Assembly: GCF_000142905.1 (NCBI RefSeq)
Contig: NW_013657671.1
Location: forward strand, 428,797-450,497
Direction: 5' to 3'
Length of the DNA stretch: 21,701 nt
Source of the DNA: Thecamonas trahens ATCC 50062
Lineage: Eukaryota; Protista; Apusomonadida
In this document: positions 99 through 21,445 of the stretch, in pieces
Numbering within the stretch: position 1 is the stretch's first letter
Layout of the letters: each line of letters opens with the position of its first letter
Position numbers and translations under genes: made by a program
Notes under the pieces: generated by a model
What the model saw: only the letters and a program-made list of their open reading frames with translations
Told to the model about the DNA's origin: nothing
Database searches by the model: none

Positions 99-1868
99 GT
101 GTTCGATGACGACGGCAATGGATCGATCGACACCAACGAGCTCCGTCAGGTGATGGTCAACATGGAGATGGATGTGGATGAGAAGCAGCTGCAGGAGATC
201 ATTGCCGAGGTGGACGAGGACAACTCGGGGACGATCGAGTTTGCCGAGTTTATGGTGCTGATGAAGAACGCCAAGACGTCCGGGTCGAAGATGGCTGCGG
301 TGGTGGAGAAGGCCGGAGACATGTACAAGGTGCAGGGTGCAACCGACTCGTCGGCACACTCGTTCTCGGAGGAGGAGAAGACCTCGTTCTCTGACTACAT
401 CAACATGGCGCTGGCGCACGACTCGGACCTCGCGCACCTGCTCCCGATCGACGCGGCGTCGATGGACCTGTTCGAGGTGGTCAAGGATGGCATTTTGCTG
501 TGCAAGCTGATCAACGAGGCCGTGCCCGGGACGATTGACGAGCGCGCCATCAACAAGAAGCCCAAGAACGCGTTCTCGCGGGCAGAAAACCTCAACATGG
601 CGGTGGCGTCTGCGGCAGCCATCGGCGTCAACGTGGTCAACCTCGGGCAGGACGACCTGACCTCGGGCAAGCACCACATTGTGCTCGGTCTCATCTGGCA
701 GCTCATCCGGATTGGGCTCATGCGCGCGATTAACCTCGAGGCGCACCCCGAGCTGTACCGGCTGCTCGAGGAGGGCGAGTCGATCGAGGACCTCATGCGG
801 CTGCCTGCCGACCAGATTCTTCTTCGGTGGCTCAACTACCATCTGGCGGCTGCCGGCTCGCCGCGTCGGGCGACCAACTTTGGCAAGGACCTGTCTGACT
901 CGGAGATCCTGACTACGGTGCTTGCGCAGGTCGGCCCGCCGTGTGACATGTCGCCGATGAACGAGAGTGACAAGCTCCGCCGCGCCGACGCCATGCTTGC
1001 CGAGGCCGACAAGATCGAGTGCCGCAAGTTTGTGACGCCCAACGACGTGACGTCGGGCAACTCGAAGCTCAACCTGCTGTTTGTGGCGAACCTGTTCAAC
1101 ACTCACCCCGGCCTCGCCGAGCTCACCGAGGAGGAGGCGCAGGAGATCGACATGGACTTTGACCTCGAGGGTGACCGCGAGGCTCGCGTCTTTGCGCTCT
1201 ACCTCTCCTCGCTTGGCGTCCCTGTCACTAACCTGTACGAGGACCTTCGCGACGGCCTCGCCCTGCTCAAGGCCTTTGATGCCGTCGAGCCAGGCATCGT
1301 CAACTGGAAGAAGGTGGCCACCAAGGTGCCCATCCGCCGCTTCTCGGCCATCGCCAACTGCAACTACGCTGTTGTTCTCGGCAAGTCGCTTCACTTTTCT
1401 CTTGTCGGCGTCTCGGGCGACAACATCAACGAGGGCGACCGCACCCGCACCCTCGCCGTCGTCTGGCAGCTCTGCCGCTTCCACCTGCTCAAGGTTCTCC
1501 GTGAGCTCGGCGGCGGCGCCAAGATCGAGGACGCCGACATGATCAAGTGGGCCAACGATACCGTCGGCGGCGTCTCGACCATGCGCGACTTCCGCGACAA
1601 GTCGCTCTCCAACGCCGTCTTCTTCCTCGACCTCATCAACGCCATCAAGCCCGGCATCGTCGAGGCCGAGTACGTCATCCGCGACGCCTCGTCCGAGGAG
1701 GACAAGACCAACAATGCACGCTACGCCATCGCCCTTGCCCGTAAGCTCGGTGCCCTCATCTTCCTCCTTCCCGAGGACGTCGTCGAGGTCCGCCCCAAGC
1801 TCATCCTCACCCTCGTCGGTACTCTCATGCAGGTTGCCAAGCGCGGCTCTGCCGGCCCGTCGGCCTAA
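99..1868 (+). CDS. SAC6: Fimbrin/plastin (actin-bundling protein), 3' exon of 589 codons: one EF-hand loop plus four calponin-homology (CH) domains. TAA stop at 1866-1868.
   Basis: The EF-hand loop DDDGNGSIDTNE fits DxDxNGxIxxxE. CH-domain signatures include DGILLCKLINEAVPGTIDERAINKK, LLRWLNYHL, ARVFALYLSSLGVPVTNLYEDLRDGLALLKAF and KWANDT...VFFLDLINAIKPGIVE. GC3 codon bias is strong. The frame enters from an upstream exon, and the first codon at 99 is GTG. Confidence 0.9.
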   Translation: MFDDDGNGSIDTNELRQVMVNMEMDVDEKQLQEIIAEVDEDNSGTIEFAEFMVLMKNAKTSGSKMAAVVEKAGDMYKVQGATDSSAHSFSEEEKTSFSDYINMALAHDSDLAHLLPIDAASMDLFEVVKDGILLCKLINEAVPGTIDERAINKKPKNAFSRAENLNMAVASAAAIGVNVVNLGQDDLTSGKHHIVLGLIWQLIRIGLMRAINLEAHPELYRLLEEGESIEDLMRLPADQILLRWLNYHLAAAGSPRRATNFGKDLSDSEILTTVLAQVGPPCDMSPMNESDKLRRADAMLAEADKIECRKFVTPNDVTSGNSKLNLLFVANLFNTHPGLAELTEEEAQEIDMDFDLEGDREARVFALYLSSLGVPVTNLYEDLRDGLALLKAFDAVEPGIVNWKKVATKVPIRRFSAIANCNYAVVLGKSLHFSLVGVSGDNINEGDRTRTLAVVWQLCRFHLLKVLRELGGGAKIEDADMIKWANDTVGGVSTMRDFRDKSLSNAVFFLDLINAIKPGIVEAEYVIRDASSEEDKTNNARYAIALARKLGALIFLLPEDVVEVRPKLILTLVGTLMQVAKRGSAGPSA

Positions 1869-8249: not shown

Positions 8250-8266
8250 GGGGGGGGGGGGGGGGG
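8250..8266. repeat. G17 homopolymer (poly-C on the sense strand of the downstream minus-strand gene).
   Basis: Direct reading: aaagggggggggggggggggatgatg. Confidence 0.9.
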
Positions 8267-8431
8267 ATGATGAAGAGGTGTGGTATGTATTAGGAGTGCC
8301 AGACTGTGGTTGTGAGAAGGATCGGATCAGAGGGGCGCGTAGTGACGGCGGGCAAGGCGGGCAGGGCAAGGCGGGCAGGGCGGGGCTGCAGCCTGATGGC
8401 GAGGAGGAGGGGGGGGTGGGGGGTGGACAGG

Positions 8432-9245
8432 TTATGTCGAGGGCGACTGCTTGGCGTGCTTGTAGTAGGTCTTGTTGTAGCGCGGATTGGTTCGCATCAG
8501 GTGCTGGGCGAGCCAGTTGATGGGGTTGATGGGCTTGACGTTGGCCACGCCGGCGTTGCGCTTCTGGGCATTGGAGGCGAGTGCCTTGAGGAGGGCCTCG
8601 ACGGCAGCATCGAGAACCGGGTAGACGGACTCTTCAAGAAACTCGTCGTCGGTGTTTGTGCGCGGATTAACGGCGACGACAGGCATGATGTCCTTTTCGC
8701 GGAGGACGTTGATGGAAGGTCGGCGGGCGAGGCGGGACGAGAGCAGCTGCAGTCGCTGCCTTTTCTCCAACCGCTTCTGGGCCTCCAGATGCGAGGGCGA
8801 GAGCTTGTTGGCCGGCATGATGTTGGACTCTTGCAGCTTTTCCATGGACGGGCGCGTCCGAAACGTCCGCTTGAGGCGAGCCTGAATGCGTGATCGCACC
8901 AGAGCCTTCTGCCGCTCGAGCACTGCTGCCGACACGTCACCACGCTGCAGAATGTTTCTCGAGATAAGATCATCTCGTTTCATTCGGCGCACGAGTTTGT
9001 GTTCCAGCGCTGCGTGATGATGGTGACGGTGATGTGAGTGTGAGACGTCGCGCTCTGCCACACCGATCGCTTCTTCCTCTCTTTCTCTCCCTCTTCCCGC
9101 CCCCCTACCTGCCCTGCTCGTCTTGAAGCATTCCTTCCCATGACGTACCTTGTGAGATGGACGATAGCGCCACCGGATGGCCACCATCGTGTTCCTCCGA
9201 CTTTCCGCTGGACCCACTGCCCGAGTCCGAGTACGAGTACGAGCC

Positions 9246-10870: not shown

Positions 10871-12437
10871 ATGTCGGTCGCGTTTGAGGTCGAGTCCATG
10901 TTGGCTCTCTTCGGCTCACAGACAGGAAAACGTACGTTGTGGTGAGGATTGTGCGGTCATGGACAGAACTCCGCTGGTACTTGGGCACTCACGTACACAC
11001 GCACCACTTGCACGGGATACTCACAACCGCAATTACCCTCACACACGCCTGCGCACACACACGCCCTGATGAACATGATCGATGTGGCGCCGAGCGATGA
11101 TAGTGGTGCATCTGCTGGTTCAGTTTGTCAACAATTCGGACAGATACCTCGCTGATTGCGAGACTAGCATCGCGGTAGATACACCCGAGGCGCTCAAAGC
11201 CTTTCGTGCGGCGGCGCATACACTCAAGGGATCAGCTGGGACTGTTAAGGCTACTCGCCTCTATCCGCTTGTTCTGTGTCTGTCGGATGTTGCAAAGCAC
11301 TCGCCATTCCCTCAGCCGCCGGTTGTGGTGGAGCTCCTCCGCCAAGCCCGCGCCGAGCATCATCGCCTCAAGGCCTACGCTGCCTGCCTGGAAGCTGCAT
11401 CATCTCCGGACTTTGACGCTTCCAACGAGGCTGCCAAGGCGGCGACGCTGTTGGCCCCGGTTTCTAGTGCTGCTATGGCTCGCCCGAGCAAGACCAAGGC
11501 CAAGCTCAACGAGCTCATCACTGTTCTCGAGGGGACCAAGGAGGTCGGTGACGTCATTAATGTCGTCGAACGCATCGGTCGCGAGCTCGACGCTCCGTTC
11601 ATCACCGTCATTCCCGAGGCCTACCGCTCGATCACGAGCATGGCTATGGAAAAGTCGCGCATGGCCTTTGACACCATGCACCGCGGCTTGCTCGACGAGG
11701 CTGCCGCCGCCCTCGAGTACATCGACGCTGGCGGCTTTGGCGTAGGCACGTCGACCGCCCACAGTGCTTCGTCGTCGACCTCGTCGGACTCGCCCTCGTA
11801 CTCGTACTCGTACTCGTACTCGTCCGACGCGCGGGCCAAGGCCAAAGCCCGCAAAAAGGCAAAGGAAAAGGCCAAGGCCAAGGAGAAGGCCAAGAAAGCG
11901 GCAAAGGACAAGGCAAAGGCAAAGGCAAAGGCAGAAGCCAAGAGCAAGGCCAAGAGCAAGGCCAAGAGCAAGGCCAAGAGCAAGGCAAAGTCAAAGGACA
12001 AGGCCAGGGCCAAGGACAAGACAAAGAGCAAGGGTCGCGATGCGCCTGATGGAGTCGCTGGCGCCAGTACTGGTACAACTGCTAGTGCTGTCGACTCGGC
12101 GGAACTCGACTACGACGAGGTTGTGGCGCGGTTTGGCGGCTCGGCCGAGTTTGCCAACGAACTGCTTGGAGAGTGGATCAAGTCACATGCCAGCGGCATC
12201 AGCGGCCTCGCTGAGGCTCTAGCCAGCGACGATGTGGCCGCCATCAAGAGCATCGCGATTGCCATCGAGGGCGAGGTCTCGATGCTCTCAATGCCGGTTC
12301 TGGCCAAGGCGGCGCAGACCGTGAGGAATGCGTGCGAGTCAGGCGAGATTGATGCCATCCGCCGGTGCTGCAACGATTTCAATGAGACCTTTACTGCAGT
12401 CGCTGCCGCCCTTGCCGCGCGCGGTATCACTCCTTGA
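10871..12437 (+). CDS. Histidine-phosphotransfer (HPt, Ypd1-like) domain protein carrying a second, His-less HPt-like domain and a Lys/Ala-rich linker. Long ORF 11082-12437; proposed 5' exon 10871-10931 with intron 10932-11103.
   Basis: HPt signature AAAHTLKGSAGTVKATRL (H.LKGS..G), with the His codon cat at 11217-11219, preceded by LVQFVNNSDRYLADCE (cf. Ypd1 LIIQFIDQAQTTFAQMQ). C-terminal residues ~330-451, FGGSAEFANELLGEWIKS...DDVAAIKSIAIAIEGEVSMLSM..., match the HPt helix layout but have Ala/Ile where the His would be. Proposed exon 1: catcatcATGTCG... encoding MSVAFEVESMLALFGSQTGK, ending in phase 1 before GTACGT (10932-10937). Branch CTGAT at ~11065; acceptor gatag|tg at 11103. Splicing yields ...GSQTGKLVHLLVQFVNN, which resembles the Ypd1 helix A/B segment (FSKGLIIQFIDQA). 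TGA stop at 12435-12437. Confidence 0.7.
11796..12012 (+). repeat. Coding low-complexity repeats inside the HPt gene: (TCGTAC)4, encoding SYSYSYSYS, then a Lys/Ala-rich region that includes a 12-bp repeat (gccaagagcaag) of 4-5 copies at 11937-11996.
   Basis: tcgtactcgtactcgtactcgtactcg at 11796-11822. The AKAKARKKAKEKAKAKEK...AKSKAKSKAKSKAKSKAKSKDKARAKDK segment comes from aaggc[c/a]aag variants. Confidence 0.85.
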
Positions 12438-13743
12438 GCCGCGTCGGCGGCGCATCGCGATCGCAGGTGCCGTGACCGGTATCCGCCGAGTGCTCGTCGT
12501 CATCGTCGTCCAGGTCCGACGTCGACTCGGAGTGCCACCAGGCGTCTGGTTCACCGTCTGCCTTGCCACTGGCACCGCCGTCTGCGTCGCTCATGTGCTC
12601 CACGGGCGCATGGTTGTGGCGGCGGATGCGTCGCCGCGGCGCGCTGTGCGATTGGTGCTTGCGCCGATGCCGTCGCCGCCGCCGCCGGTGATGCCGGGTG
12701 TGAACCGCGTCGTGGCTCTGCTCGCCGTCAAACACGTCATCGACACTCGTCACTGCCGCCCACTTGGCCCGAAGCGCGGTAAAATCCACAGACCGTGTGT
12801 CTTCAGGCCCGAGCGAGATGTTGGCCTTGACGGATTCCTTCCGTCGTCCGCCCGGCGACGCCGATGAGTGCTGCGACCGGAGTCGGGTGATAGACCGCTT
12901 CTTGCCGGCCAGTGGCGACGAACGAGTCGGGACATGCTTGGCTGCATTCAACGCGGCCGCGACTGCGCCAGCTTCTGGTAGTGCCTCTGAACCGGCCGTC
13001 GAGCTTGCGCCGACATCGTTCGAGGCGTGTGCGGGCGATGCGCCGACCGACGCAGCAGCAGCCGCAAGTGCCGCTTGGGCTCGCTTGGCCGACGCGTCTG
13101 CGAGCGAGGTCCGGATGGCCATCGACGACGAGCGATGCTTCAGCTGGCGGAGGCGGATTGGCGACTGCGACGAGAGCGGTGCGGCCGAAAGCGATTTGGG
13201 CGTCAGCGGCTCAGGCGGCTCGTCGTCAGAGCCGGCCACCGCCGCCGCAGTCTCGGACGAGTCGAGCACCGAGCGCAGCTCGTAGACTGCGTACGTCGAG
13301 TTGAGGTGCGAGGGGAAGAAGAGGTCACTGGCAGCCGGGCAGGTGAACGGGGCCGGCACGTCAAGTAAGTGGATCTCGATGGGTGTGCCGTTGAGCGCCG
13401 AGTACACAACGGTAAACGCAGGGAAGGAGACAATGATGAACGGGTACGAGAGTGCAAAGTGCATTGGCGTCGATCGCCAGTGCATGGTGTGCCGGGCGGC
13501 GGCGAGGCTTGCCGGCGACGTCCGCAGCGAGGCGTCAACGGCCCACGGCAGAATCTCGCCATGACTCTCGTAGCATACCAGCCAGGCGCCAGGGAGCTCG
13601 TAAGCAGCGAGCGGTGGGTGTCCGGATGGCGAGGCGGCGACAGTGTGGAGACCCCAGAGCTGGTGTCGATGAGCACTAGCGCAGCTGCGCCCTCGGGCGC
13701 AAGAATGCCGACAAGGATGCCAACCGAGGTGAGCGAAAGGCAT
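12427..13743 (-). CDS. ORF of unknown function. It is either a separate small gene, likely starting near the Met codons at ~13440, or a 3' continuation of the upstream RapGAP gene. The C-terminus is His/Arg/Asp-rich.
   Basis: The stretch MHWRSTPMHFALSYPFIIVSFPAFTVVYSALNGTPIEIHLLDVPAPFTCP...YAVYELRSVLD has strong GC3 bias and a hydrophobic N-segment. The tail HTRHHRRRRRRHRRKHQSH...DLDDDDDEH is low-complexity. The first ~60 codons of the listed ORF overlap the end of the RapGAP ORF in another frame, have weak GC3 bias and are probably non-coding. No homolog recognised. Confidence 0.35.
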   Translation of the reverse strand: MPFAHLGWHPCRHSCARGRSCASAHRHQLWGLHTVAASPSGHPPLAAYELPGAWLVCYESHGEILPWAVDASLRTSPASLAAARHTMHWRSTPMHFALSYPFIIVSFPAFTVVYSALNGTPIEIHLLDVPAPFTCPAASDLFFPSHLNSTYAVYELRSVLDSSETAAAVAGSDDEPPEPLTPKSLSAAPLSSQSPIRLRQLKHRSSSMAIRTSLADASAKRAQAALAAAAASVGASPAHASNDVGASSTAGSEALPEAGAVAAALNAAKHVPTRSSPLAGKKRSITRLRSQHSSASPGGRRKESVKANISLGPEDTRSVDFTALRAKWAAVTSVDDVFDGEQSHDAVHTRHHRRRRRRHRRKHQSHSAPRRRIRRHNHAPVEHMSDADGGASGKADGEPDAWWHSESTSDLDDDDDEHSADTGHGTCDRDAPPTRLKE

Positions 13744-16366
13744 GTGATGCGGCCAGGCATCTGGACAGGCTCGATGTGTGGGACAAAGGCAGGGCCCGAC
13801 TCGAAGCCGCCTGCGTCGTGGGTGAGGACGTGGACTGCGTACCGCGACGCGACAACCAGGACTGGCGCGCCGTCAAGCTCGCCGGCTTCGAAAAAGCCGG
13901 GTTGGCGACCGGCACAAAGGCGACGCTTGGCCGGCCGCCACTCAGCAGCGGCTCAAGCGCCACCGCAAACATGGCCTGTTGACCCGATGCCGACGTCGTT
14001 GCCGCAAGAAGCGCGTTGGCGGACGCGCACACTGCAATGGACACTAAGCCGGGCATGTTGAGCACAAGCTTGCAGTCTGGATGACCGCGGGTGTTGGAGA
14101 AGAGCGCCTGCGGCGTGGCAAGAAACAGCGTCTCGCCGAGGGTGTCCATCGACGTGATGGCGTAGGGAAACGAGTCTAGGAGCGGGTCAATGGAGAAGAC
14201 CTGTGACGGCTCGACTTTGAGCGCGGCGCGGAGGAGCGGAACCGAGGCGTCCGAGACGGAGGTCCGGCGCGCGCTGGTGGCGTCCGCCTCGGTGCTGCTT
14301 AGCCACGGCATGTGCATGAGCGAGAGCCGGATGCTGTCGAGGGCGGCCAGCCAGCTTGTTGACTCGGGTGGCGGCGACTTGGTTGTCAGCTTGGACAGCT
14401 TGCGGCGCTTCTTGTCGGCAGTCGGGAGTGCGGCAAGATCGTCGAGGAGCGCGTCAATGAGCATGGCGCGGGTACGCAGCGCGCGCGCCTTGAACTCGGG
14501 CGAGCGGAGCGTGGCACGCTGCCCATTGAGGCACTTGGCGAGGATGTGGGTGCGGAGCGCCGAGGCGGGAAGAGGCGTCGGTGGCGTGAGCGGGCCAAAA
14601 GCGCGAGTGTCGGCCGCATGGGCAATGCCGACCAAGTAGTGCGGCTCAGACGAAGAAAGCACGGCGCTCGGTGGCACTGGAGAGACAACGACCAGCGTCC
14701 GAGTATACTTGGACGCCATGGTGGAGGCCAGGTACGGCGAGGTCATGGGCGCGTCCATAAAGACGATGACAACAATGTCGTTGCCAATGAACCGCTTGCG
14801 CTGGATGTGCTGCTCGTCGTTGGCATCCCAGTGAAGGAGGGTCGAGACGTGGAACATGACGTCGTGGTCGGCAAACGAGGTTGTGACAGAGTGGGTGCCC
14901 GAGCCGTCGCAAGCCGTGTCAAGCTGAGCCGAGTAGCCATCGTAGCCTTTGAGCCTCACCCGCGAGCCAAGGAGTTCGAGAAAGGCGTCAAAGGCAAGCG
15001 AACCATCCTTGTTGCCGAACATCTCCAGTTCGTTGACTTGACCTGGTGCAGCGTAGAGGACGCCGATCTTGAGTGTCTTGGCGGTTTCGGGCTCCTCGAG
15101 ACGGCGGACGGCGGCGATAAGCCGAGGTGGCGGCTGGGCGTTTGCAGACGGCACCAGGCTCCACAGCCGTGAAACAGCCTTGGGCGATGAAACCGAGGCT
15201 GGTGGGAGGATCGCAGGCGCGAGCGCAGTAAGGACAACAGCAAAGTCAAGTCGCGACGATGCGTGGAGCACAAAGTAGTACGCGCGACGCGCAGTCTTGG
15301 TGAAGACTGCAAGCCAGTGCTGAATACCAGCATGTGAGGCTTTGGTGAGCGCAAGCGCCGCCACCGCGCCAAGGTCCGGCGCTGTATAGAGAGTATGCGG
15401 CATGTCCGAGAGCAGCGCAGTGTACCACGCCGAGCATGCGGGATCGTCCTCGATCCACGGCCCGGCGGCCTCCACTGGGAACGCGGATGCGTCCGAGACC
15501 GAGAACGGCTGCTCCACGTGCCAGCCTGGTGCTTCAGCTACTGGCCAGGGTGGTGAGGCGATGGCGGCGGCGCGGGTGGCGGCGCGCGCGTCGAGCGCTG
15601 CTGCCAGTGATGGTGACGGCACTTTGGCGTGGCTCGCGTCGGCTATCCGGACCAAAAGCTCCAGAAAGCCTGCTTGCGGTGGCGCCATCGCCAGCCGATG
15701 CAGGACGTAGCCGGCGTAGTCGGGCGAGGCGGCATTGAGATCGACGGTCGTCCTGCCGATGACCGAGTCGCGCGCCATCCGGTGTGCAGCATAGAGCTCA
15801 AGAGTGACCGACACCTCATCGTCTGAGCAGCTTCCCTGGTTTCCGCTGCGGCTCTCAAGAGGAAGAACAAGCATGGCGTGCCAGGCAGTGTCCAGCGGTG
15901 CCGAGTGGGTTGTAGCCGAGACCGGCGGCTCGGCCTCGCCAACACGCTTCCCGGCTACCGCCGCCCGGACATAGGTCCGTGACTTTGCCCGACCAACAAG
16001 GGCGTCGTCGGCCTTAGCCACACGCAAGACATACAGACACAAATAGCGAGGGGGAGTAGCAGGAGAGGAAGAGGACATAGCCAGTGGAGCTAGATGGGTA
16101 CAGGCACCGCCGCCCAAGGCCGATGGATACAGAGCTTTGCAAGCCAGTTCGTTGAGCGCACACTCTCCGCCACCCGCTTGGGACGCATCACCAGGTCCAA
16201 GAGCAGCTGTTGCTGTTGCTGATGAGGATGTTGTTGTTGTTGCTGCTGCTGTTGTTGTTGGTACTGCTGCTGCTGTTGTTGTGCCTCTCCCAGAGTTGGT
16301 ACCAGATTCGGACCGAGGGTGGCACGGCGTGCCTGTGTCCGACCCGTTGCTTCCGCCTCTCTCCAT
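13676..16366 (-). CDS. Rap/Ran-GAP domain protein with a Rap1GAP/tuberin-type catalytic domain; 896-codon ORF with a true ATG at 16366.
   Basis: The RapGAP core KIGVLYAAPGQVNELEMFGNKDGSLAFDAFLELLGSRVRLKGYDGYSAQLDTACDGSGTHSVTTSFADHDVMFHVSTLLHWDANDEQHIQRKRFIGNDIVVIVFMD aligns with tuberin/Rap1GAP (VGIVYV.AGQ..E.EIL.N..GS..F.EFL..LG....L......GGLD....DG....Y....IMFHV.T.MP...........KKRH.GNDFV.IV). The following helix LPASALRTHILAKCLNGQ is a candidate Asn-thumb. The N-terminus has a Thr/Ala-rich triplet-repeat region. The last ~55 codons before the stop (after a GTACGC at ~13842) lose GC3 bias, so the true 3' end may be earlier or spliced. Confidence 0.8.
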   Translation of the reverse strand: MERGGSNGSDTGTPCHPRSESGTNSGRGTTTAAAVPTTTAAATTTTSSSATATAALGPGDASQAGGGECALNELACKALYPSALGGGACTHLAPLAMSSSSPATPPRYLCLYVLRVAKADDALVGRAKSRTYVRAAVAGKRVGEAEPPVSATTHSAPLDTAWHAMLVLPLESRSGNQGSCSDDEVSVTLELYAAHRMARDSVIGRTTVDLNAASPDYAGYVLHRLAMAPPQAGFLELLVRIADASHAKVPSPSLAAALDARAATRAAAIASPPWPVAEAPGWHVEQPFSVSDASAFPVEAAGPWIEDDPACSAWYTALLSDMPHTLYTAPDLGAVAALALTKASHAGIQHWLAVFTKTARRAYYFVLHASSRLDFAVVLTALAPAILPPASVSSPKAVSRLWSLVPSANAQPPPRLIAAVRRLEEPETAKTLKIGVLYAAPGQVNELEMFGNKDGSLAFDAFLELLGSRVRLKGYDGYSAQLDTACDGSGTHSVTTSFADHDVMFHVSTLLHWDANDEQHIQRKRFIGNDIVVIVFMDAPMTSPYLASTMASKYTRTLVVVSPVPPSAVLSSSEPHYLVGIAHAADTRAFGPLTPPTPLPASALRTHILAKCLNGQRATLRSPEFKARALRTRAMLIDALLDDLAALPTADKKRRKLSKLTTKSPPPESTSWLAALDSIRLSLMHMPWLSSTEADATSARRTSVSDASVPLLRAALKVEPSQVFSIDPLLDSFPYAITSMDTLGETLFLATPQALFSNTRGHPDCKLVLNMPGLVSIAVCASANALLAATTSASGQQAMFAVALEPLLSGGRPSVAFVPVANPAFSKPASLTARQSWLSRRGTQSTSSPTTQAASSRALPLSHTSSLSRCLAASHAFRSPRLASLSAFLRPRAQLR
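16195..16300. repeat. Imperfect (GTT/GCT)n trinucleotide repeat on +, which is (AAC/AGC/ACA) on the sense strand. It encodes the Thr/Ala/Ser-rich N-terminal region of the RapGAP protein.
   Basis: gctgttgctgttgctgatgaggatgttgttgttgttgctgctgctgttgttgttggtactgctgctgctgttgttgtg, encoding TTTAAAVPTTTAAATTTTSSSATATAA. Confidence 0.8.
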
Positions 16367-16689: not shown

Positions 16690-19600
16690 TTACACGTCGC
16701 GGAGGAGTAGTGAAGGAAGCGGGGGTGGGGCAGGAATTGAAGCTGATGTCGGCGATGACGCGGATGAAGACGAGGTTGCCGTCGATGACGTAGCATGTGA
16801 GGAGGAGCTAGAGTCGGATGCCAGGCGCGAGGTGGTGGGGGAGGTCGGCGTGATCGGAGAGAAGGGCGAGAGCGGAGAGCACGGCGAGCAGACGGTAAGG
16901 CGGGCGCCGGGCGGATCAGTGGGAATGCTGAGCGAGAGGTTAGGAAAGATGCTTGTAGTGGGCGAAACCGAGACCGAGCTGTGTGGCGAGCTTGATCGTG
17001 GGCTGATTGACATTGCGGTGGCGGAGACGCCCGAGCCATGCGACGCGAGACCCGCCACGGCATCGGTGTTGAGAAAAACGGCCGAGGCTGACGGCAGACC
17101 GACGAGTGTGTCCATGCCCGAGGCAGCCACGTAGGCCTGGCCCGGAACAAAGGCAACGCCTGTCGTGTCTTCGATACAGGACGCGTCGGTGAGCGAGTCG
17201 ATGTCAATGACCGAGATCTCGATGTCGGACGACTTTCCATGGGCAGCAAACTCAAAGTCGACCTCGCCGGTGTCGCGGTCGCGGATCCACCAAACTTCGT
17301 AGACGATGGCAACAACGACAATAAAGAGGGTGGCAAGCAGCGCGGTGATGACCACGGCGTCGCGGAGGTGGCTTGATCCCTGCATGGTGCCGCCCCAGAG
17401 GAGAACTACGGCTCCGGCGCTAACGGCTCCATCCAATATGTTGTGGTGCTCTTCAGCGTAAGGGCGATGTCTGTGGATGAGGGCATGCACGATGCTGGCA
17501 AGGATGCCGAGACCGATGACGTGGGCTTTGGCGCTCGGCGACCGCAGCGCGCACACGGCGACCACCATGGCAAGCTTCCTTCCGAGCACCACATTCTCGT
17601 ACCAATACAGATCCGGCCGGTACTTGGCGACGAGGAATGCATACTTGGTGAGAAAGCTGAGATCGTCCAGCTGCTGCTTCTTGCGGCGAAGGAAGACTCC
17701 AAGGCCAACTGGGATAATCAACCCGTAGGCGAGGGCGACGATGATGATGAGGGGTAGGGTGGCGTACCACGCCACAGTGTAACAGCGCTGGTGTGGATTG
17801 GTTGTCATGACCACGATTCCCCCGCCGACGTCTGTGCAGTCGACATACCGCAGCGCAGAGTACATCAGCGGCATGTAGAGCAAGAGGAGCGTCTGTAGAT
17901 AGCCGCGCCCGGCGGCGTCGACTAGCTGCCTGTTGGGGGCAAAGAGCGCCCTAGCGTGCGCGCCGACGCCTGCGCGTCCTTGTGCGACGCGGCGATTATG
18001 GCGCAGCGCGCTCCCGACCGAGGCACAGCACGTGACAAGGCCAAAGGGAAGAAGGAAGAGCATCGGCAGCGCCATGGTCACGCCCCACTTGAACATCCAA
18101 ACATCGCCGACGTCGAGCCCGCACTCTGGCGAAGCGAGGTCAAAGTTGAGGTTGACAAGTGAGACGGCGTCAAAGATGGCGGCGGCAACAGGATGCCAAC
18201 GCAGTCGGATGGTGCCGTAAAGGGCCACGGCTTGTAGCGAGTTGAGCGCAATGACAAACGCGGCGTATCCGTACATGTTTGTCTCGCGTGTGTTGAGCCA
18301 GAGGACAACAGTGGCGTAGACAAAGAAGCCAAGGATGAGGAGAGCGGCCAGAGCAGCGTTGGAGCCACGGCAGCGTCGGCACCGCTCTCCAAGCCGGAAC
18401 CAGCCGCGATCGCACTCGGCGCACAGCCGGCCGGTGTAGCCGACCCGGCAAGCTGTGCCACCGACGCAAGCCTCAGGCAGCGGACATGCCACAAAGAGGC
18501 CCGGGCCGTCGTCGCCTTGGCCAAAACCGGCGGCGGCGACCGGATCTGCGCGGCCGCCGAGACAGACCGCGCCGAACGGGCAAGCGACGCATGCTGCGCC
18601 ACGCCGCTGGCCGCGCGCTCCGAACCAGAAACCCGGACGGCACGTGCAGTTGGTGTAGCTTTGGGATGCTTCGGGCGAGGTTGAGAACGGTGGACAGACA
18701 CTACACTCGGGAGCGTCGATGGCGTCCGAAAAGGTGCCGGGCGCGCACGCGCTGCAACCTCCGCCGTCGACCGAGTGCTCGCCGGGCACACAGGTGGTGG
18801 CGGCAAAGACAACAAATGGTGAGCCGACAATATCCTCGCTCGAGATTTCGACCGATAGGGTGTATGTCCCACCGCGCTCGGCGACGAGGTCAAAGCCGAG
18901 GCGCGGACTCTCGCGGTACAAGATTTGGACAGATCTCTCACCGGCGCTGCCCTTGATCCGGATCGAGACGTCCGCGTCTGATGGGAGGCTTGAGACCGCA
19001 TTGCCGTAGACATCGGCAACAACAACTTCGTACCGACTCGCCACGCCGGTCTCGACGCTGAGGACTGATCCGAGCACGGCGTTGTCGAGCACAGAAGCTG
19101 ACGCGGCGGCTGGTCCGGGGACAACCTGGACTGTGAGCGGTGCAGCTTCAAGTGTGCGACCGTTGATGCCGAGCGTGTATGTGTACACGTCAGCAACCGT
19201 CGGCACCGTGACTGTGGCCTCGTACTCTCCGCTGGCCAGAAAGCTGTGGGAGGCGACACGATCTGTGCCATCGGGCAGGCGTGCTGTGGGCAGGTCGAGT
19301 CCGCTGCCTGTCGGGAGATGGAAAGAGTCGCGGACGTGAAAGGCCACCACAAAAGACGATCCCGCGACGAGGACGATCGGGGCCGCGGGGGGCGTGGCGA
19401 ACGAGTTGCTGATGTTGAACGAGGAGCAGAACGGGGTCGAGGCCGAGACACTCCACTCCGAGTCCCCGCCGCAAATCGAGGTCGAGGGACCGACAAGCGA
19501 AAGGCCCCCGGTGCAGACAAAGGAGCATGACTCGCCAAAGATGCCACGGCCCGTGCCATTTGAGCAGGTGATGACAATGTCCGGCGGCGGGACCAGCGGC

Positions 19601-20211
19601 GGGCAAGAGACATAGGCGCAGACGGCCTCACTTCCAGACCAAGTCCCATCAGAGCAGACGCGCAGAGCCGAGCCTGAAATGAGGTCGATTCCGGGATCGC
19701 AGATGACTGTGGCGGTCGAGCCGGTGTAGCCGTAGTTGGAGAACGAGAGCGAGCCGTTGGACGGCGGCGCAAAGAGCGGGCATGCATAGGGCGGCGGTGG
19801 CGAGGGCGGTGCCGGTGGCGAGGGCGGCGGCGGCGGCGATGGGATACATTGAACCGCCGGAGGGAGAGCTGACCAGATGCCATCCACGCATGTGACCGAG
19901 TTTCCCGGTCCGGCGCCGACGAGGGTGAGGCCGCCGGAGCAGGTGATGGTGACGGCGTCGCCAAATGGCACGGCAGTGGTCGAGGTGATGGGCGAGACCG
20001 AGACCGAGGCGTCCGTGACTGGAGGATAAGGATGACATACGTGGTAGTAGGTGAGGTTGAGCGAGCTCGGCGTGGCGTTGGCCGAGTACTTGCGCTGTGG
20101 CTTGCAGCCGATGCAGTCGAGCGAGAGCAGGACGACGAGCGACGTGGTAGAGCTGGTACTGGTGATGGCGTCCTGGGCCACAACGTCGAGTGGGATCTCA
20201 AACGGGTTCAA
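16690..20211 (-). CDS. Main ORF of a large secreted multi-pass membrane protein of 1173 codons: three Sushi/CCP domains, two filamin-type Ig repeats, a Cys-rich EGF/TNFR/ephrin-receptor-like module, about 10 TM helices and a Ser/Pro-rich C-tail.
   Basis: Sushi domains: C59..C91..C108(DGIWS)..C122; CPLFAPPSNG...VICDPGIDLISGSALRVCSDGTWSGSEAVC; CPPLVPPPDIVITCSNG...CSFVCTGGLSLVGPSTSICGGDSEWSVSASTPFC, with Pro-rich linkers. Filamin repeats: GTYTLSVEISSEDIVGSPFVVFAA carries the GSPF signature, and YEATVTVPTVADVYTYTLGINGRTLEAAPLTVQVVPG. Cys-rich: CVPGEHSVDGGGCSACAPGTFSD...CAECDRGWFRLGERCRRC. TM helices run from ALAALLILGFFVYATVVLWL to AVVITALLATLFIVVVAIVYEVWWI. The ORF-track start at 20211 is TTG, so the true start is upstream. 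Confidence 0.8.
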   Translation of the reverse strand: MNPFEIPLDVVAQDAITSTSSTTSLVVLLSLDCIGCKPQRKYSANATPSSLNLTYYHVCHPYPPVTDASVSVSPITSTTAVPFGDAVTITCSGGLTLVGAGPGNSVTCVDGIWSALPPAVQCIPSPPPPPSPPAPPSPPPPYACPLFAPPSNGSLSFSNYGYTGSTATVICDPGIDLISGSALRVCSDGTWSGSEAVCAYVSCPPLVPPPDIVITCSNGTGRGIFGESCSFVCTGGLSLVGPSTSICGGDSEWSVSASTPFCSSFNISNSFATPPAAPIVLVAGSSFVVAFHVRDSFHLPTGSGLDLPTARLPDGTDRVASHSFLASGEYEATVTVPTVADVYTYTLGINGRTLEAAPLTVQVVPGPAAASASVLDNAVLGSVLSVETGVASRYEVVVADVYGNAVSSLPSDADVSIRIKGSAGERSVQILYRESPRLGFDLVAERGGTYTLSVEISSEDIVGSPFVVFAATTCVPGEHSVDGGGCSACAPGTFSDAIDAPECSVCPPFSTSPEASQSYTNCTCRPGFWFGARGQRRGAACVACPFGAVCLGGRADPVAAAGFGQGDDGPGLFVACPLPEACVGGTACRVGYTGRLCAECDRGWFRLGERCRRCRGSNAALAALLILGFFVYATVVLWLNTRETNMYGYAAFVIALNSLQAVALYGTIRLRWHPVAAAIFDAVSLVNLNFDLASPECGLDVGDVWMFKWGVTMALPMLFLLPFGLVTCCASVGSALRHNRRVAQGRAGVGAHARALFAPNRQLVDAAGRGYLQTLLLLYMPLMYSALRYVDCTDVGGGIVVMTTNPHQRCYTVAWYATLPLIIIVALAYGLIIPVGLGVFLRRKKQQLDDLSFLTKYAFLVAKYRPDLYWYENVVLGRKLAMVVAVCALRSPSAKAHVIGLGILASIVHALIHRHRPYAEEHHNILDGAVSAGAVVLLWGGTMQGSSHLRDAVVITALLATLFIVVVAIVYEVWWIRDRDTGEVDFEFAAHGKSSDIEISVIDIDSLTDASCIEDTTGVAFVPGQAYVAASGMDTLVGLPSASAVFLNTDAVAGLASHGSGVSATAMSISPRSSSPHSSVSVSPTTSIFPNLSLSIPTDPPGARLTVCSPCSPLSPFSPITPTSPTTSRLASDSSSSSHATSSTATSSSSASSPTSASIPAPPPLPSLLLRDV

Positions 20212-20627
20212 CTGCGATGTTGCCGGCCAGGACTGGATCGGGCCGACGCGTGGGACGGCGTCAAGGCCGTACGAATCAGACCAGGGGGCGAGGAAAGGGC
20301 GGTGCCGACCGCCGGATCGTCGTATTGGTACGCCTGCAGATGCCAGACCGCCGACGAGGCGGCATCGGCTTTCTTGAGGCGGGCGAGCGTGATCTTGGTA
20401 TCTGTCGGAACCATAAACACACTGCCATTGGTGGGGAGCGAGAGAGATCCCAGAGGGAGACGGAGAGCAATGACATGGTCGCGCATAGAGATGGTGCCGG
20501 GAATTTCGATGGAATTTCCAGAACTGGTCTCCATGGCGCGGACATCGACTGCGGGGTCCAGCGGCTCGTCAAGGAGGAGCAGCGTGGCGGCATGACATGT
20601 GTGTGCATACAGCACGAGCACAAGCAT
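20212..20627 (-). CDS. Probable 5' signal-peptide-encoding part of the receptor-like gene. ATG at 20627 encodes MLVLVLYAHTCHAATLLLL.... It sits in a different frame from the main ORF, so an undetermined short intron or a 1-nt indel lies at ~20210-20300.
   Basis: The hydrophobic N-terminus has a signal-peptide shape and is followed by a protein-like sequence (SIEIPGTISMRDHVIALRLPLGSLSLPTNGSVFMVPTDTK...). That frame stops at 20208 while the main ORF frame is open from ~20500. No donor/acceptor pair with compatible phase could be identified by eye. Confidence 0.4.
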
Positions 20628-21445
20628 GGCAGCCGCGACATTGGCCTTGGTTCCGTGGCGTGAGGGATGAGAGCGGGGAGGGATCATGACGGGCGAGTTT
20701 GGGGAACAATGAAAATATTTCTCACGCGGCGTCGGCACGCGTGCGGACTGAGGCCACGGAGCGACAAAGGGCAATAGTGGAGGATATACAGGGTTCCCGG
20801 TAATAGGCTTGGACTCGGACGGTAGGTAAACGCTTGTATAATGCTATGCAGGGAGTAACGGGACCGGGGACTTTCTGTGGATAGACGATAGAGGCCGTGG
20901 AACAAAGGGGAAGACCAAGTCGGTGGCACGTGCGGAGAGAGATATGCGGGGCCTACTACCGCAGTCCCGCAGCATCGAATACAGACAGTGGAGAAGGAGA
21001 GGACTACAGGGTCGACGAGGGCCGTTATCGCATTGTGCTTTGGTTGTAGATCGGGCTTGGATTGGGTGCCAGACCGGAGCTCGGCCTCCTGGACAGAAGC
21101 CGTGGCTTGGCGGGCTTCCGGCCGGGGTTCTGGCCCGAGGCTGGCTCGACGAGTGAACGCATGCAATGGCAGACCAGGACAAGGAATTTGACTTTGAGCA
21201 TGGTGCGATGGGGCGGATTGATAGGCCCCATGTTGGGAGCCCGCACATATGCCCAGGAGCATGCTCCAGGCTCTCGAGTACTCTGGTCTCAAGACCAAGC
21301 AAGGACGCTGATGGTTCGCGGCCGGTGGCCCGGTGCCACGCAGCACTCGTTGGGCCGGCCAACCACCAACCAACCCACAGGCCACCGGTCGCCACTCGCC
21401 ACTCACCGACACCAGTTGCCACCACTCGTCACCAGCCAGCACATC

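What the first reader, a model, noticed from the sequence alone, without database searches (positions are those of the whole stretch)
16690..20627. Large Sushi x3 / filamin-repeat x2 / Cys-rich / ~10-TM receptor-like protein, an unusual architecture for a fungus
Three textbook CCP/Sushi modules (four Cys each, with G.WS before the last Cys) separated by PPPPSPP linkers are followed by two filamin/ABP280 repeats (one ending in ...DIVGSPFVVFAA). Next comes a ~140-aa cysteine-rich block with CxxC/CxC spacing like GCC2_GCC3 / ephrin-receptor-like / laminin-EGF modules. A polytopic domain of about 10 TM helices and a Ser/Pro-rich cytosolic tail close the protein. Sushi domains are very rare outside animals. 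Joined to a multi-spanning membrane domain, they suggest a ligand- or cell-surface-sensing receptor or channel of an undescribed family. An N-terminal signal peptide appears to be supplied by an upstream ORF in another frame.
Basis: partly seen in the sequence, partly recalled or inferred. Interest (0 to 1): 0.7.

Follow-up and report, generated by a model that had tools for sequence, protein, structure and literature searches.

The report
CRMP-like nine-helix surface receptor, Thecamonas
This is a real gene of the gliding protist Thecamonas trahens (not a fungus) for a large cell-surface protein. Animal-style adhesion modules sit on a nine-helix membrane core that is homologous to the CRMP proteins malaria and Toxoplasma parasites need for invasion, so it is a new member of a known but poorly understood family.

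Summary
Window 16690-20211 (minus strand) is one uninterrupted 1173-codon ORF. It encodes three Sushi modules (each above Pfam's threshold), two filamin-type Ig repeats, an ephrin-receptor/TNFR-like Cys-rich block, a DUF7630 module, a multi-pass membrane domain and a Ser/Pro-rich tail. A signal-peptide-like exon lies upstream in another frame.

Corrections:
- There are nine TM helices, not about ten.
- There is only one proline-rich linker.
- The third Sushi module has six Cys.

- The window is Thecamonas trahens ATCC 50062; its fimbrin ORF is 100% identical to the NCBI protein.
- The family is not undescribed. The DUF7630 + 9-TM core is homologous to Toxoplasma CRMPA and CRMPB (hhalign 99.4% and 97.3%). 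It also passes Pfam's threshold for PF06011, the family Pfam names "TRP".
- Exhaustive HMMER finds 4,820 cluster representatives. The named ones come from several eukaryotic supergroups and include at least nine T. trahens paralogues, some with Sushi+filamin ectodomains.
- The core's confident AlphaFold model (pLDDT 90) matches no solved structure, neither TRP channels nor GPCRs.

Most likely function: an N-out/C-in contact-sensing receptor, by analogy with CRMPs. This is a new member of a known kind, of moderate interest.

The parts
20589..20687 (-). Putative start codon (ATG at 20687; alternative ATG at 20627) and signal peptide MIPPRSHPSRHGTKANVAAAMLVLVLYAHTCHA, in the frame of ORF 20208..20774
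   Evidence: Read directly from the sequence: charged n-region, hydrophobic core, C-H-A before the predicted cleavage site. No signal-peptide predictor was available. Pfam finds nothing in this ORF.
20310..20588 (-). Rest of putative exon 1: first part of a ~150-aa N-terminal ecto region with no Pfam family
   Evidence: This frame reads like protein; the main frame upstream of 20211 is Arg-rich nonsense. '..WHLQAYQYDDPA' lines up by eye with '..LLSYTFPGTADE' of paralogue P0003.
20212..20309 (-). Best-guess intron (98 nt, GTCGGC...CGCAG) joining the signal-peptide frame to the main ORF. Inferred, not shown.
   Evidence: It is the only canonical GT-AG pair near the frame switch that keeps 'NPFEIPLD'. 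Four candidate proteins built on GT donor 20309 were not found by exact look-up, so the junction stays open. An assembly frameshift is the alternative.
20038..20211 (-). ORF aa 1-58: second part of the N-terminal ecto region (NPFEIPLDVVAQDAI...SLVVLLSLDCIGC...)
   Evidence: By eye it resembles the N-terminal regions of P0003 and P0007. The BLAST alignment to P0001 starts at aa 27.
19846..20037 (-). Sushi/CCP module 1 (aa 59-122; Cys 59, 91, 108, 122; DGIWS)
   Evidence: PF00084, 25.8 bits against cut-off 20.7. Cys positions.
19783..19845 (-). Proline-rich linker IPSPPPPPSPPAPPSPPPPYA (aa 123-143)
   Evidence: Read from the translation. A similar linker occurs in P0001.
19618..19782 (-). Sushi/CCP module 2 (aa 144-198; Cys 144, 171, 186, 198; DGTWS)
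   Evidence: PF00084, 30.1 bits.
19426..19605 (-). Sushi/CCP module 3 (aa 203-262; six Cys: 203, 216, 229, 233, 247, 262; SEWS)
   Evidence: PF00084, 28.2 bits. Cys positions.
19114..19425 (-). Filamin-type Ig repeat 1 (aa 263-366)
   Evidence: Weak Invasin_D3/PKD hits when scanned alone. The two-domain profile aligns over both repeats of filamin A 18-19 (2k7q, profile positions 34-216). All-beta AlphaFold model. Foldseek aligns 212-221 columns to tandem filamin fragments.
18796..19113 (-). Filamin-type Ig repeat 2 (aa 367-472; ...GGTYTLSVEISSEDIVGSPFVVFAA)
   Evidence: PF00630 18.4 bits alone. The aligned domain in P0007 scores 59.5 bits and in P0008 39.8 bits. Profile against PDB gelation factor E=1.5e-24. 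Foldseek against filamin C E=2e-12.
18496..18795 (-). Cys-rich ephrin-receptor-like / TNFR-like repeats (aa 473-572)
   Evidence: TNFR_ELAPOR1_6th 25.6 bits and Ephrin_rec_like 19.5 bits, both below cut-off. Paralogues P0003 and P0008 reach the Ephrin_rec_like cut-off.
18370..18495 (-). DUF7630 juxtamembrane module (aa 573-614). Six of its Cys (582, 588, 597, 600, 611, 614) are invariant across the family and TgCRMPA/B.
   Evidence: PF24633 42-46 bits against cut-off 27. The same module scores 64.6 bits in TgCRMPA. Invariant Cys.
17257..18369 (-). Nine-TM core (aa 615-985). TM1 619-641, TM2 647-665, ecto loop with P-E-C697, TM3 704-729, TM4 761-790, ecto beta-hairpin with C792/C810, TM5 813-839, cytosolic YAFLVAKY...E872...R878-K879 motif at TM6 871-888, TM7 892-912, TM8 921-941, TM9 947-970.
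   Evidence: AlphaFold pLDDT 90, pTM 0.87. K+R 18 inside, 5 outside. PF06011 31.6 bits. hhalign to TgCRMPA 99.4% and TgCRMPB 97.3%. Conserved residues.
16690..17256 (-). Cytosolic Ser/Pro/Thr/Ala-rich tail (aa 986-1173) and stop codon
   Evidence: Composition S 24%, P 11%, T 10%. No Pfam hit. Not alignable with paralogues beyond aa ~996.

Best explanation
The gene encodes a plasma-membrane (or secretory-pathway) receptor of the CRMP-like family in Thecamonas trahens.

Shown:
- One continuous coding region gives, in order: an unclassified N-terminal region, three Sushi modules, two filamin-type Ig repeats, ephrin-receptor/TNFR-like Cys repeats, a disulfide-rich DUF7630 module, a nine-helix membrane core, and a disordered Ser/Pro-rich tail.
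- The predicted topology puts the N-terminal part outside and the tail inside.
- The DUF7630 + nine-helix core is homologous to the core of Toxoplasma CRMPA/CRMPB. It is also matched by Pfam PF06011, the family Pfam calls 'TRP'.
- The core belongs to a large family with named members in several eukaryotic supergroups, and the ectodomains of family members are shuffled.

Inferred mechanism:
- The Sushi modules, held away from the membrane by the filamin/Cys-rich stalk, bind an external ligand. Candidates are prey or substrate surface, or another cell.
- Binding or mechanical load passes through the rigid DUF7630 module, which sits directly on TM1, into the nine-helix core. The core possibly works as a dimer with a paralogue, as predicted for CRMPA/B.
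- The core then triggers a local intracellular response. In apicomplexans and ciliates that response is regulated exocytosis. Fission-yeast Pkd2, the founding member of PF06011 by my recollection of the Pfam entry, shows stretch-activated Ca2+ permeability.
- The Ser/Pro-rich tail would be a regulated docking or phosphorylation region.

The many T. trahens paralogues with different ectodomains would then form a repertoire of contact sensors for a gliding, bacterivorous cell.
For: Gene and domains.

Organism: (fimbrin 100% identical to the T. trahens ATCC 50062 protein).

Topology: AlphaFold model with pLDDT 90 and nine TM helices; positive-inside count 18 against 5.

CRMP homology:
- hhalign of the 25-sequence core alignment against the TgCRMPA TM region gives probability 99.4%, E=6.4e-22 over 338 columns. 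Against TgCRMPB it gives 97.3%, E=1.8e-11 over 352 columns. The CRMP sequences come from S2 Table of PMC9815656.
- DUF7630 scores 64.6 bits in TgCRMPA and 46 bits here.
- Invariant residues shared with both CRMPs: six Cys of DUF7630, W672, E696, P716, C792, C810, E872, R878, K879, P917.

Family size and spread:
- 4,820 representatives at E<=1e-3 and 111 at E<=1e-30.
- Named members come from Thecamonas, Capsaspora, Paulinella and Cyanophora.
- Ectodomains vary: Sushi+filamin, FG-GAP x11, RCC1+TIG, Big_9, Ephrin_rec_like.

PF06011 link: 31.6 bits here; 38.5 bits over profile positions 193-397 in the Capsaspora member.

Functional precedent:
- CRMPs are N-out/C-in nine-TM proteins required to trigger rhoptry or mucocyst exocytosis, and CRMPA/B are predicted to heterodimerise (PMC9670195, PMC9815656).
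- S. pombe Pkd2 has a signal peptide, an ecto domain, a nine-helix TMD and a disordered tail. It becomes Ca2+-permeable on membrane stretch (bioRxiv 10.1101/2022.08.11.503631; PMC9727806).
Against: - No functional data exist for any apusomonad member. The function is transferred across about 20% sequence identity and very large evolutionary distances.
- The ectodomain differs from that of the CRMPs (Kringle/MAR/EGF-receptor-like), so ligand and context may differ.
- The PF06011 match in this protein covers only TM6-TM9 (profile positions 271-390 of 426). For the full-length ORF it falls just under the cut-off (27.9 against 28.5 bits).
- TgCRMPA and TgCRMPB do not themselves hit PF06011 at E<=0.1.
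- The 5' junction is unresolved, so the signal peptide is inferred. A frameshifted pseudogene is not excluded.
- Subcellular location is unknown.
Confidence: 0.7

Rival explanations
1. The nine-helix core is itself a contact- or stretch-gated Ca2+-permeable channel of the fungal Pkd2/Flc type (Pfam PF06011). The ectodomain acts as the force- or ligand-collecting antenna, and the output is Ca2+ entry rather than protein-protein signalling.
For: - PF06011 scores above its gathering threshold on the isolated core (31.6 bits). It reaches 38.5 bits over six helices in the Capsaspora family member.
- S. pombe Pkd2 has the same plan: signal peptide, ecto domain, nine TM helices, disordered tail. Reconstituted Pkd2 passes Ca2+ when the membrane is stretched (PMC9727806).
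- Charged residues E872/R878/K879 at TM6 are invariant across the family and both CRMPs.
Against: - The match is partial in this protein and borderline for the full-length ORF (27.9 bits).
- The model resembles no solved TRP or polycystin channel, nor any other channel.
- No oligomer or pore was modelled here.
- Channel activity of Pkd2 rests on one reconstitution study. That S. pombe Pkd2 belongs to PF06011 is taken from my knowledge of the Pfam entry and was not tested here.
Confidence: 0.3
2. It is an adhesion-GPCR-like receptor: an adhesive ectodomain coupled to a serpentine domain that signals through G proteins, as was suggested for TgCRMPa and PfCRMP1.
For: - PANTHER classed TgCRMPa and PfCRMP1 as GPCR-like, and HHpred suggested GAIN-like regions in the Tetrahymena CRMPs (PMC9670195).
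- The overall logic (adhesion modules plus a multi-pass domain) resembles adhesion GPCRs.
Against: - There are nine helices, not seven.
- The best Foldseek hit to any GPCR (GPR156) has E=1.3 and TM-score 0.14.
- Pfam finds no 7tm or GAIN/GPS family in the protein at E<=0.1.
Confidence: 0.05
3. The locus is a decaying paralogue (pseudogene) or carries an assembly error. The frame break between the signal-peptide ORF and the main ORF would then be a real or artefactual frameshift, not an intron.
For: - The two frames overlap and no strong splice consensus joins them; the best donor is GTCGGC.
- Four candidate spliced proteins are absent from the protein collection.
- The family has many paralogues, which favours gene death.
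Against: - A 1173-codon ORF is intact.
- Every residue that is invariant across the family is retained, including all DUF7630 Cys, W672, C792, C810, E872, R878, K879 and P917.
- The Sushi modules still pass Pfam thresholds.
- An intron acceptor is evident in this genome in the neighbouring fimbrin gene.
Confidence: 0.1

Closest known systems
Toxoplasma gondii CRMPA/CRMPB (TGGT1_261080 / TGGT1_292020), Plasmodium CRMP1-4, Tetrahymena CRMP1/2
   Same: - A signal peptide and a large Cys-rich modular ectodomain, followed by a DUF7630 module directly before TM1, a nine-TM core and a cytosolic tail, with N-out/C-in topology.
- Core homology by hhalign is 99.4% and 97.3%.
- Shared invariant residues are listed.
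- No member has a solved structure.
   Different: - The CRMP ectodomains carry Kringle, MAR and EGF-receptor-like modules, not Sushi and filamin.
- About 20% identity in the core.
- CRMPs have long loop insertions.
- CRMP function (triggering rhoptry or mucocyst exocytosis; a complex with MIC15/TSP1) is demonstrated. Nothing is known here, and no such function has been tested in Thecamonas.
Thecamonas trahens paralogues AMSG_12410 (XP model with fused Aa_trans), AMSG_10681 ('Sushi domain-containing protein'), XP_013756230 ('P-selectin')
   Same: - AMSG_12410 is collinear with this protein from the N-terminal region to the end of the core: Sushi, filamin-type Ig, Cys-rich, DUF7630, nine TM. AMSG_10681 aligns from Sushi-2 onwards.
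- 49-52% identity.
- Pfam finds Sushi x3 plus Filamin plus DUF7630 in the 'P-selectin' paralogue.
   Different: They sit at different loci and have different tails and linker lengths. All are uncharacterised database entries. The annotated model for this locus itself was not recovered.
Fungal 'TRP-like' proteins of Pfam PF06011 (S. pombe Pkd2, Trp663, Trp1322; S. cerevisiae Flc1-3)
   Same: - The PF06011 profile matches the core above threshold.
- The plan is the same: signal peptide, extracellular domain, a ~400-aa nine-helix TMD and a disordered cytosolic tail.
   Different: - The fungal ecto domain is a single ML-like/Ig-like lipid-binding domain, and no DUF7630 is described for it.
- The match here covers only TM6-TM9.
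- Membership of these fungal proteins in PF06011 is from my knowledge of the Pfam entry, not tested here.
Animal TRP / polycystin-2 channels and adhesion GPCRs
   Same: Only the general idea: a large ectodomain on a multi-pass domain, and the historical name 'TRP'.
Complement-control / selectin-type Sushi proteins and filamin (ABP-120/ABP-280) rods
   Same: The individual modules are bona fide members of these domain families.
   Different: Here the filamin-type repeats are extracellular and follow Sushi modules on a multi-pass membrane protein. Filamins themselves are cytosolic actin cross-linkers.

Membership tests
CRMP-like family (DUF7630 + nine-TM core) | Six-Cys juxtamembrane module DUF7630 (PF24633) immediately before TM1 | tested here: met
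   42-46 bits against cut-off 27 at aa 573-614. The same model scores 64.6 bits in TgCRMPA and 18.2 bits in TgCRMPB.
CRMP-like family (DUF7630 + nine-TM core) | Membrane core homologous to that of characterised CRMPs | tested here: met
   hhalign of alignment A2 against TgCRMPA gives 99.4%, E=6.4e-22 over 338 columns. Against TgCRMPB it gives 97.3%, E=1.8e-11 over 352 columns.
CRMP-like family (DUF7630 + nine-TM core) | Nine TM helices, ectodomain outside, C-terminus cytosolic | tested here: met
   AlphaFold model with pLDDT 90 and nine membrane-length helices. K+R 18 inside against 5 outside. This is a prediction only.
CRMP-like family (DUF7630 + nine-TM core) | N-terminal signal peptide | tested here: inconclusive
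   A signal-peptide-like sequence exists in an upstream ORF in another frame. The splice junction is not established.
CRMP-like family (DUF7630 + nine-TM core) | Heterodimer with a paralogue; role in triggering regulated exocytosis | not testable with these tools
   Needs multimer modelling, which was not available, and experiments. The precedent is in PMC9815656 and PMC9670195.
Pfam PF06011 'TRP' (fungal Pkd2/Flc type) | Score at or above Pfam's gathering threshold (28.5 bits) | tested here: met
   31.6-31.8 bits for the isolated core. The full-length ORF scores 27.9 bits, just below.
Pfam PF06011 'TRP' (fungal Pkd2/Flc type) | Match over the whole 426-position profile | tested here: not met
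   Only profile positions 271-390 align here. Family members P0087 and P0114 extend to positions 154-400.
Pfam PF06011 'TRP' (fungal Pkd2/Flc type) | Stretch-activated Ca2+ permeability | not testable with these tools
   Shown for S. pombe Pkd2 only (PMC9727806).
Canonical TRP / polycystin channels | Six-TM voltage-sensor-like plus pore fold | tested here: not met
Adhesion GPCRs | 7TM fold and GAIN/GPS domain | tested here: not met
   Nine helices. No 7tm, GAIN or GPS Pfam hit. GPCR structural matches are at noise level.
Sushi/CCP (PF00084) | Pfam gathering score; consensus Cys and Trp | tested here: met
   Three modules at 25.8, 30.1 and 28.2 bits against 20.7. Four consensus Cys and the W are present in each; module 3 has two extra Cys.
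Filamin/ABP280 repeat (PF00630) | Pfam gathering score (26.9 bits) on this sequence | tested here: not met
   Repeat 2 scores 18.4 bits. Repeat 1 has no Filamin hit.
Filamin/ABP280 repeat (PF00630) | Profile-level and structural similarity to solved filamin repeats | tested here: met
   Profile A3 against PDB: gelation factor E=1.5e-24 and filamin A E=3.2e-21. Foldseek: filamin C domains 14-15 E=2.3e-12 and the Dictyostelium filamin rod E=3e-11. The aligned domain in P0007 scores 59.5 bits. Repeat 1 is equally close to invasin/intimin-type Ig domains.
Ephrin_rec_like (PF07699, formerly GCC2_GCC3) | Pfam gathering score (23.1 bits) | tested here: inconclusive
   19.5 bits here. Paralogues score 23.0-25.3 bits at the aligned position.

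The most novel reading that the evidence does not exclude
The DUF7630 + nine-helix core is an ancient module present in several eukaryotic supergroups that converts surface contact or membrane tension into a local Ca2+/exocytosis signal. On this reading, fungal Pkd2/Flc 'TRP-like' proteins, apicomplexan and ciliate CRMPs, and the Thecamonas/Capsaspora receptors are all members of one family, which has so far been described as apicomplexan- or alveolate-specific. Thecamonas, a sister lineage of opisthokonts, would have expanded it into a repertoire of prey or substrate sensors by shuffling animal-type adhesion modules (Sushi, filamin, integrin-alpha FG-GAP propeller, TIG) onto the core. That would give a testable mechanism for how CRMPs trigger rhoptry discharge: Ca2+ permeation, as measured for Pkd2.
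Probability: 0.3. Interest if true: 0.7.

Novelty: new member of a known kind. Interest (0 to 1): 0.42.

Why it matters
The gene is one paralogue of a family already present, uncharacterised, in the public T. trahens proteome. On its own it is not a discovery.

What has some value is the placement.
[quoted passage not shown] How they signal is unknown. The papers read here call them apicomplexan-specific or alveolate-conserved, with Dictyostelium homologues noted in passing.
- This analysis shows the CRMP core is very widespread: 4,820 cluster representatives, with named members from Apusomonadida, Filasterea, Rhizaria and Glaucophyta.
- The core always follows a DUF7630 module and carries freely exchanged ectodomains.
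- By Pfam's own threshold it overlaps the fungal Pkd2/Flc family, for which Ca2+ permeability has been measured.
- No paper in the searchable library connects the two literatures.

For people working on the unicellular ancestry of animal adhesion, the pairing of Sushi, filamin, FG-GAP and TIG modules with this core in an apusomonad is a further example of pre-metazoan domain shuffling.

Tried and rejected
1. Word-index homology searches were largely uninformative.
- The full ORF returned only two hits, and the core alignment returned none.
- The cause is probably low-complexity words saturating the candidate list. Known paralogues present in that collection were missed.
- The absence of a self-hit therefore says nothing about whether this locus is annotated.

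2. Exact look-ups all failed: the neighbouring Rap-GAP and Hpt ORFs, T. trahens fimbrin, and four candidate full-length models of this gene. The annotated model and accession of this locus remain unknown.

3. Enumerating GT/GC-AG pairs to fix the 5' junction gave far too many possibilities. The strong-looking donor GTACGG at 20271 has no frame-compatible acceptor. The 22-nt GTATGT...CCAG at 20019-20040 is too short for an intron, and the reading frame stays open across it. The choice of 20309/20212 rests only on an alignment by eye with paralogue N-termini.

4. tblastn of AMSG_12410 residues 380-520 against the window found no similarity upstream of the main ORF.

5. Sequence-profile search of the core against all PDB sequences found only a noise-level hit (E=0.2) to the Cys-rich region of EphA2.

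7. The AlphaFold-database libraries were not available. A direct structural comparison with PfCRMP2, Dictyostelium Q86I19 or S. pombe Pkd2 models could not be made.

8. Horizontal origin of the Sushi modules was considered and not pursued. GC content of the gene (0.61-0.65) matches the flanks, and Sushi recurs in several paralogues.

9. Literature searches for 'Thecamonas + Sushi' and for 'DUF7630' found nothing relevant.

Full report
**What is in the sequence**

Window 16690..20211 on the minus strand is a single ORF of 1173 codons. GC content is about 0.61-0.65 across the gene and its flanks.

Pfam on the whole ORF finds Sushi (three stretches), DUF7630, a near-threshold PF06011 'TRP' match, and weak TNFR_ELAPOR1 and Invasin_D3 matches. 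It finds no Filamin hit at E<=0.1.

Scanning each segment separately gave the following:
- Each Sushi module passes the gathering score on its own: 25.8, 30.1 and 28.2 bits against 20.7.
- DUF7630 scores 46 bits.
- The isolated membrane domain passes PF06011: 31.6 bits against 28.5.
- The second Ig-like domain gives a sub-threshold Filamin hit of 18.4 bits.
- The first Ig-like domain gives weak Invasin_D3 and PKD hits.
- Ephrin_rec_like (19.5 bits) and TNFR_ELAPOR1_6th (25.6 bits) are below threshold.

**The filamin claim**

I aligned the two Ig-like domains with ten homologues (alignment A3).
- The profile hits Dictyostelium gelation factor (E=1.5e-24), filamin A (E=3e-21) and many other filamin repeats in the PDB. 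One hit (2k7q, filamin A repeats 18-19) covers profile positions 34-216 and so spans both domains.
- The AlphaFold model of the pair is confident: pLDDT 91.7.
- Foldseek puts two-domain fragments of filamin C (E=2e-12) and the Dictyostelium filamin rod (E=3e-11) first, followed by invasin/intimin-type adhesins.
- In the environmental homologue P0007 the domain that aligns with window aa ~370-467 is a Pfam Filamin hit of 59.5 bits. In the T. trahens 'P-selectin' paralogue it scores 39.8 bits.

**Small corrections to the observation**
- Only the Sushi-1/Sushi-2 linker is proline-rich.
- Sushi-3 has six cysteines.
- The membrane domain has nine helices, not about ten (see 'The membrane core').

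**Organism**

The ORF at 99..1868 is 100% identical over its full length to fimbrin of Thecamonas trahens ATCC 50062. The next best hits are 62% identical or less. The window is therefore from this apusomonad, not from a fungus.

The other genes in the window fit a protist: a cAR-like 7TM protein, an Hpt protein and a Rap-GAP.

The closest relatives of the protein are T. trahens paralogues: AMSG_12410 (49% identity, collinear from aa 27 to 996) and AMSG_10681 (52.5%).

**Gene model**

The main ORF has no ATG near its start. An ORF in another frame (20208..20774, minus strand) begins MIPPRSHPSRHGTKANVAAAMLVLVLYAHTCHA|ATLLLL from the ATG at 20687. That frame continues as plausible protein, whereas the main frame upstream of 20211 reads as Arg-rich nonsense.

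Comparison by eye with the N-termini of P0003 and P0007 places the frame switch between '..AYQYDDPA' and 'NPFEIPLD..'. The only canonical GT-AG pair that does this is 20309/20212, a 98-nt intron with a weak GTCGGC donor.

Four candidate proteins were not found by exact look-up, so the junction is inferred. An assembly frameshift or a pseudogene remains possible. Against a pseudogene, every residue invariant across the family is retained.

**The family**

An exhaustive HMMER search used the DUF7630 + membrane region of this protein and AMSG_12410. It found 4,820 cluster representatives at E<=1e-3, 1,259 at E<=1e-10 and 111 at E<=1e-30.

Of twenty representatives looked up by name:
- Nine are T. 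trahens proteins.
- Others are from Capsaspora (Filasterea), Paulinella (Rhizaria) and Cyanophora (Glaucophyta), or from environmental assemblies.

Pfam scans of eighteen members show the pattern:
- A constant core. DUF7630 scored at E<=0.001 in 14 of the 18, followed by the multi-pass domain, which occasionally reaches PF06011.
- Exchangeable ectodomains: Sushi x3 + filamin; eleven FG-GAP repeats; RCC1 + TIG; Big_9; Ephrin_rec_like repeats.
- Exchangeable tails: CAP-Gly, SH3, EF-hand.

**The membrane core**

AlphaFold, run with a 25-sequence alignment (A2), gives a confident model: pLDDT 90, pTM 0.87.

Read with the positive-inside count (18 K+R inside, 5 outside), the topology is nine TM helices with the ectodomain outside and the tail inside. 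Two conserved extracellular elements stand out:
- a loop carrying P-E-C697;
- a beta-hairpin bracketed by the invariant C792 and C810.

A conserved cytosolic motif, YAFLVAKY...E872...R878-K879, lies at the start of TM6.

The model has no relative among solved structures.
- Foldseek against 350,542 chains gives a best E of 0.07 with TM-scores of 0.25 or less.

The PDB holds many TRP, polycystin and GPCR structures, so the core does not share those folds. The Pfam name 'TRP' is historical.

**Link to known biology**

The combination 'Cys-rich modular ectodomain + about nine TM helices' recalled the apicomplexan cysteine repeat modular proteins (CRMPs). The sequences used to model the CRMPA/B membrane regions are printed in S2 Table of PMC9815656.

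Tests against them:
- Profile comparison of A2 with TgCRMPA gives 99.4% probability, E=6.4e-22 over 338 columns. With TgCRMPB it gives 97.3%, E=1.8e-11 over 352 columns.
- DUF7630 scores 64.6 bits in TgCRMPA.
- Adding the two CRMPs to A2 leaves these residues invariant: six DUF7630 cysteines, W672, E696, P716, C792, C810, E872, R878, K879 and P917.

The core of this protein is therefore homologous to the CRMP core.

What is known about CRMPs:
- They are N-out/C-in proteins.
- In Toxoplasma they form a CRMPA/B complex with MIC15 and TSP1, accumulate transiently at the exocytic site, and are required for rhoptry discharge and invasion.
- Tetrahymena homologues are needed for mucocyst exocytosis.
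- The authors propose a host-contact sensor. They note that the nine-TM region is also seen in Dictyostelium proteins, while calling the family apicomplexan-specific or alveolate-conserved (PMC9670195 and PMC9815656).

**The PF06011 side**

Pfam describes the family as TRP ion channels. Its founding member, by my recollection of the Pfam entry, is S. pombe Pkd2.

An AlphaFold-based study describes Pkd2 as a signal peptide, a 147-aa extracellular domain, a 405-aa TMD with nine helices ('unlike most polycystins') and a disordered tail. Trp663 and Trp1322 are alike (bioRxiv 10.1101/2022.08.11.503631). Reconstituted Pkd2 becomes Ca2+-permeable on membrane stretch (PMC9727806). That is the same plan as the core described here.

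The sequence evidence:
- It is significant but partial for this protein: positions 271-390 of the 426-position profile.
- It is better for the Capsaspora member: 38.5 bits over positions 193-397.
- The Toxoplasma CRMPs themselves do not reach PF06011.
- I could not run a structural or profile-profile test against fungal members. No fungal sequences were at hand, and the AlphaFold-database library was unavailable.

No paper in the library mentions CRMPs together with Pkd2, Flc or TRP-like proteins.

**Interpretation**

Shown:
- One gene.
- The domain order.
- The predicted topology.
- Homology of the core to CRMPs.
- The Pfam-level overlap with PF06011.
- The wide distribution of the family and its ectodomain shuffling.

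Inferred:
- The protein is a surface contact sensor.
- Its Sushi modules, presented on a filamin/Cys-rich stalk, bind an external ligand.
- Its nine-helix core transmits the event inward, possibly as a dimer with a paralogue and possibly by Ca2+ permeation.
- The Ser/Pro-rich tail serves as a regulated docking region.

For a gliding bacterivore, a repertoire of such receptors for prey or substrate is a reasonable reading, but nothing here tests it.

Alternatives:
- Adhesion-GPCR reading: disfavoured by helix number and fold.
- Canonical TRP channel reading: rejected by fold.
- Pseudogene or assembly-error reading: kept at low probability.

**Verdict**

Near-identical architectures are already deposited as uncharacterised T. 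trahens proteins.

The by-product has moderate interest and is directly testable. The CRMP core has named members in several eukaryotic supergroups, and Pfam connects it to the fungal Pkd2/Flc family, for which Ca2+ permeability has been measured.

Noticed in passing
P0001 (NCBI AMSG_12410, T. trahens), aa 1-~400: The deposited 1542-aa model starts with an Aa_trans (PF01490) amino-acid transporter in front of the Sushi/filamin/DUF7630/9-TM body. It looks like two neighbouring genes fused by the annotation.
   Followed up: partly
P0010 (AMSG_02943), P0005 (AMSG_12368), P0114 (Capsaspora CAOG_06563), P0099: Other members of the family carry an 11-repeat FG-GAP (integrin-alpha-like) region, a CAP-Gly domain after the core, a C-terminal SH3 domain, or RCC1+TIG modules. 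The DUF7630 + 9-TM core acts as a chassis for shuffled ecto and cytosolic modules.
   Followed up: partly
window 20038-20588 (minus strand): A ~150-aa region between the signal peptide and Sushi-1 resembles, by eye, the N-terminal regions of paralogue P0003 and environmental homologue P0007. It matches no Pfam family and may be an undescribed ecto domain.
   Followed up: partly
window 99-1868 (+): Fimbrin/plastin gene (EF-hands plus four CH domains), 100% identical to the T. trahens ATCC 50062 protein. This identifies the organism. The first ~33 residues of the deposited protein lie upstream of an intron acceptor near position 95.
   Followed up: yes
window 1991-3208 (+): ORF with a Dictyostelium cAMP-receptor-like / ocular-albinism-like 7TM domain (Dicty_CAR, E=7e-10). 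It is a GPCR next to fimbrin.
   Followed up: no
window 3216-8369 (-) and 8432-9217 (-): A 1717-aa ORF with no Pfam match at all, followed upstream by an ORF with a Dpy-30 motif. Between them lies a C/T-rich stretch with repeated CCCTGCCCGCCTTGCC units. I did not test whether they belong to one gene.
   Followed up: no
window 11082-12437 (+) and 13676-16366 (-): An Hpt (histidine phosphotransfer) domain protein and a Rap/Ran-GAP protein with a long low-complexity N-terminus are the immediate neighbours. Neither exact ORF product is on record in the protein collection.
   Followed up: partly
ORF aa 872-879 (window 17575-17598, minus strand): The motif E-x5-R-K at the cytosolic start of TM6 (YENVVLGRK) is invariant from Thecamonas to Toxoplasma CRMPA/B. 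Its role is unknown: gating, lipid contact or partner binding are possibilities.
   Followed up: partly
literature (PMC9815656, PMC9670195): The CRMP papers describe the family as apicomplexan-specific or alveolate-conserved. The HMMER search here finds thousands of relatives, with named members in Apusomonadida, Filasterea, Rhizaria and Glaucophyta. No paper in the library links CRMPs with fungal Pkd2/Flc.
   Followed up: partly
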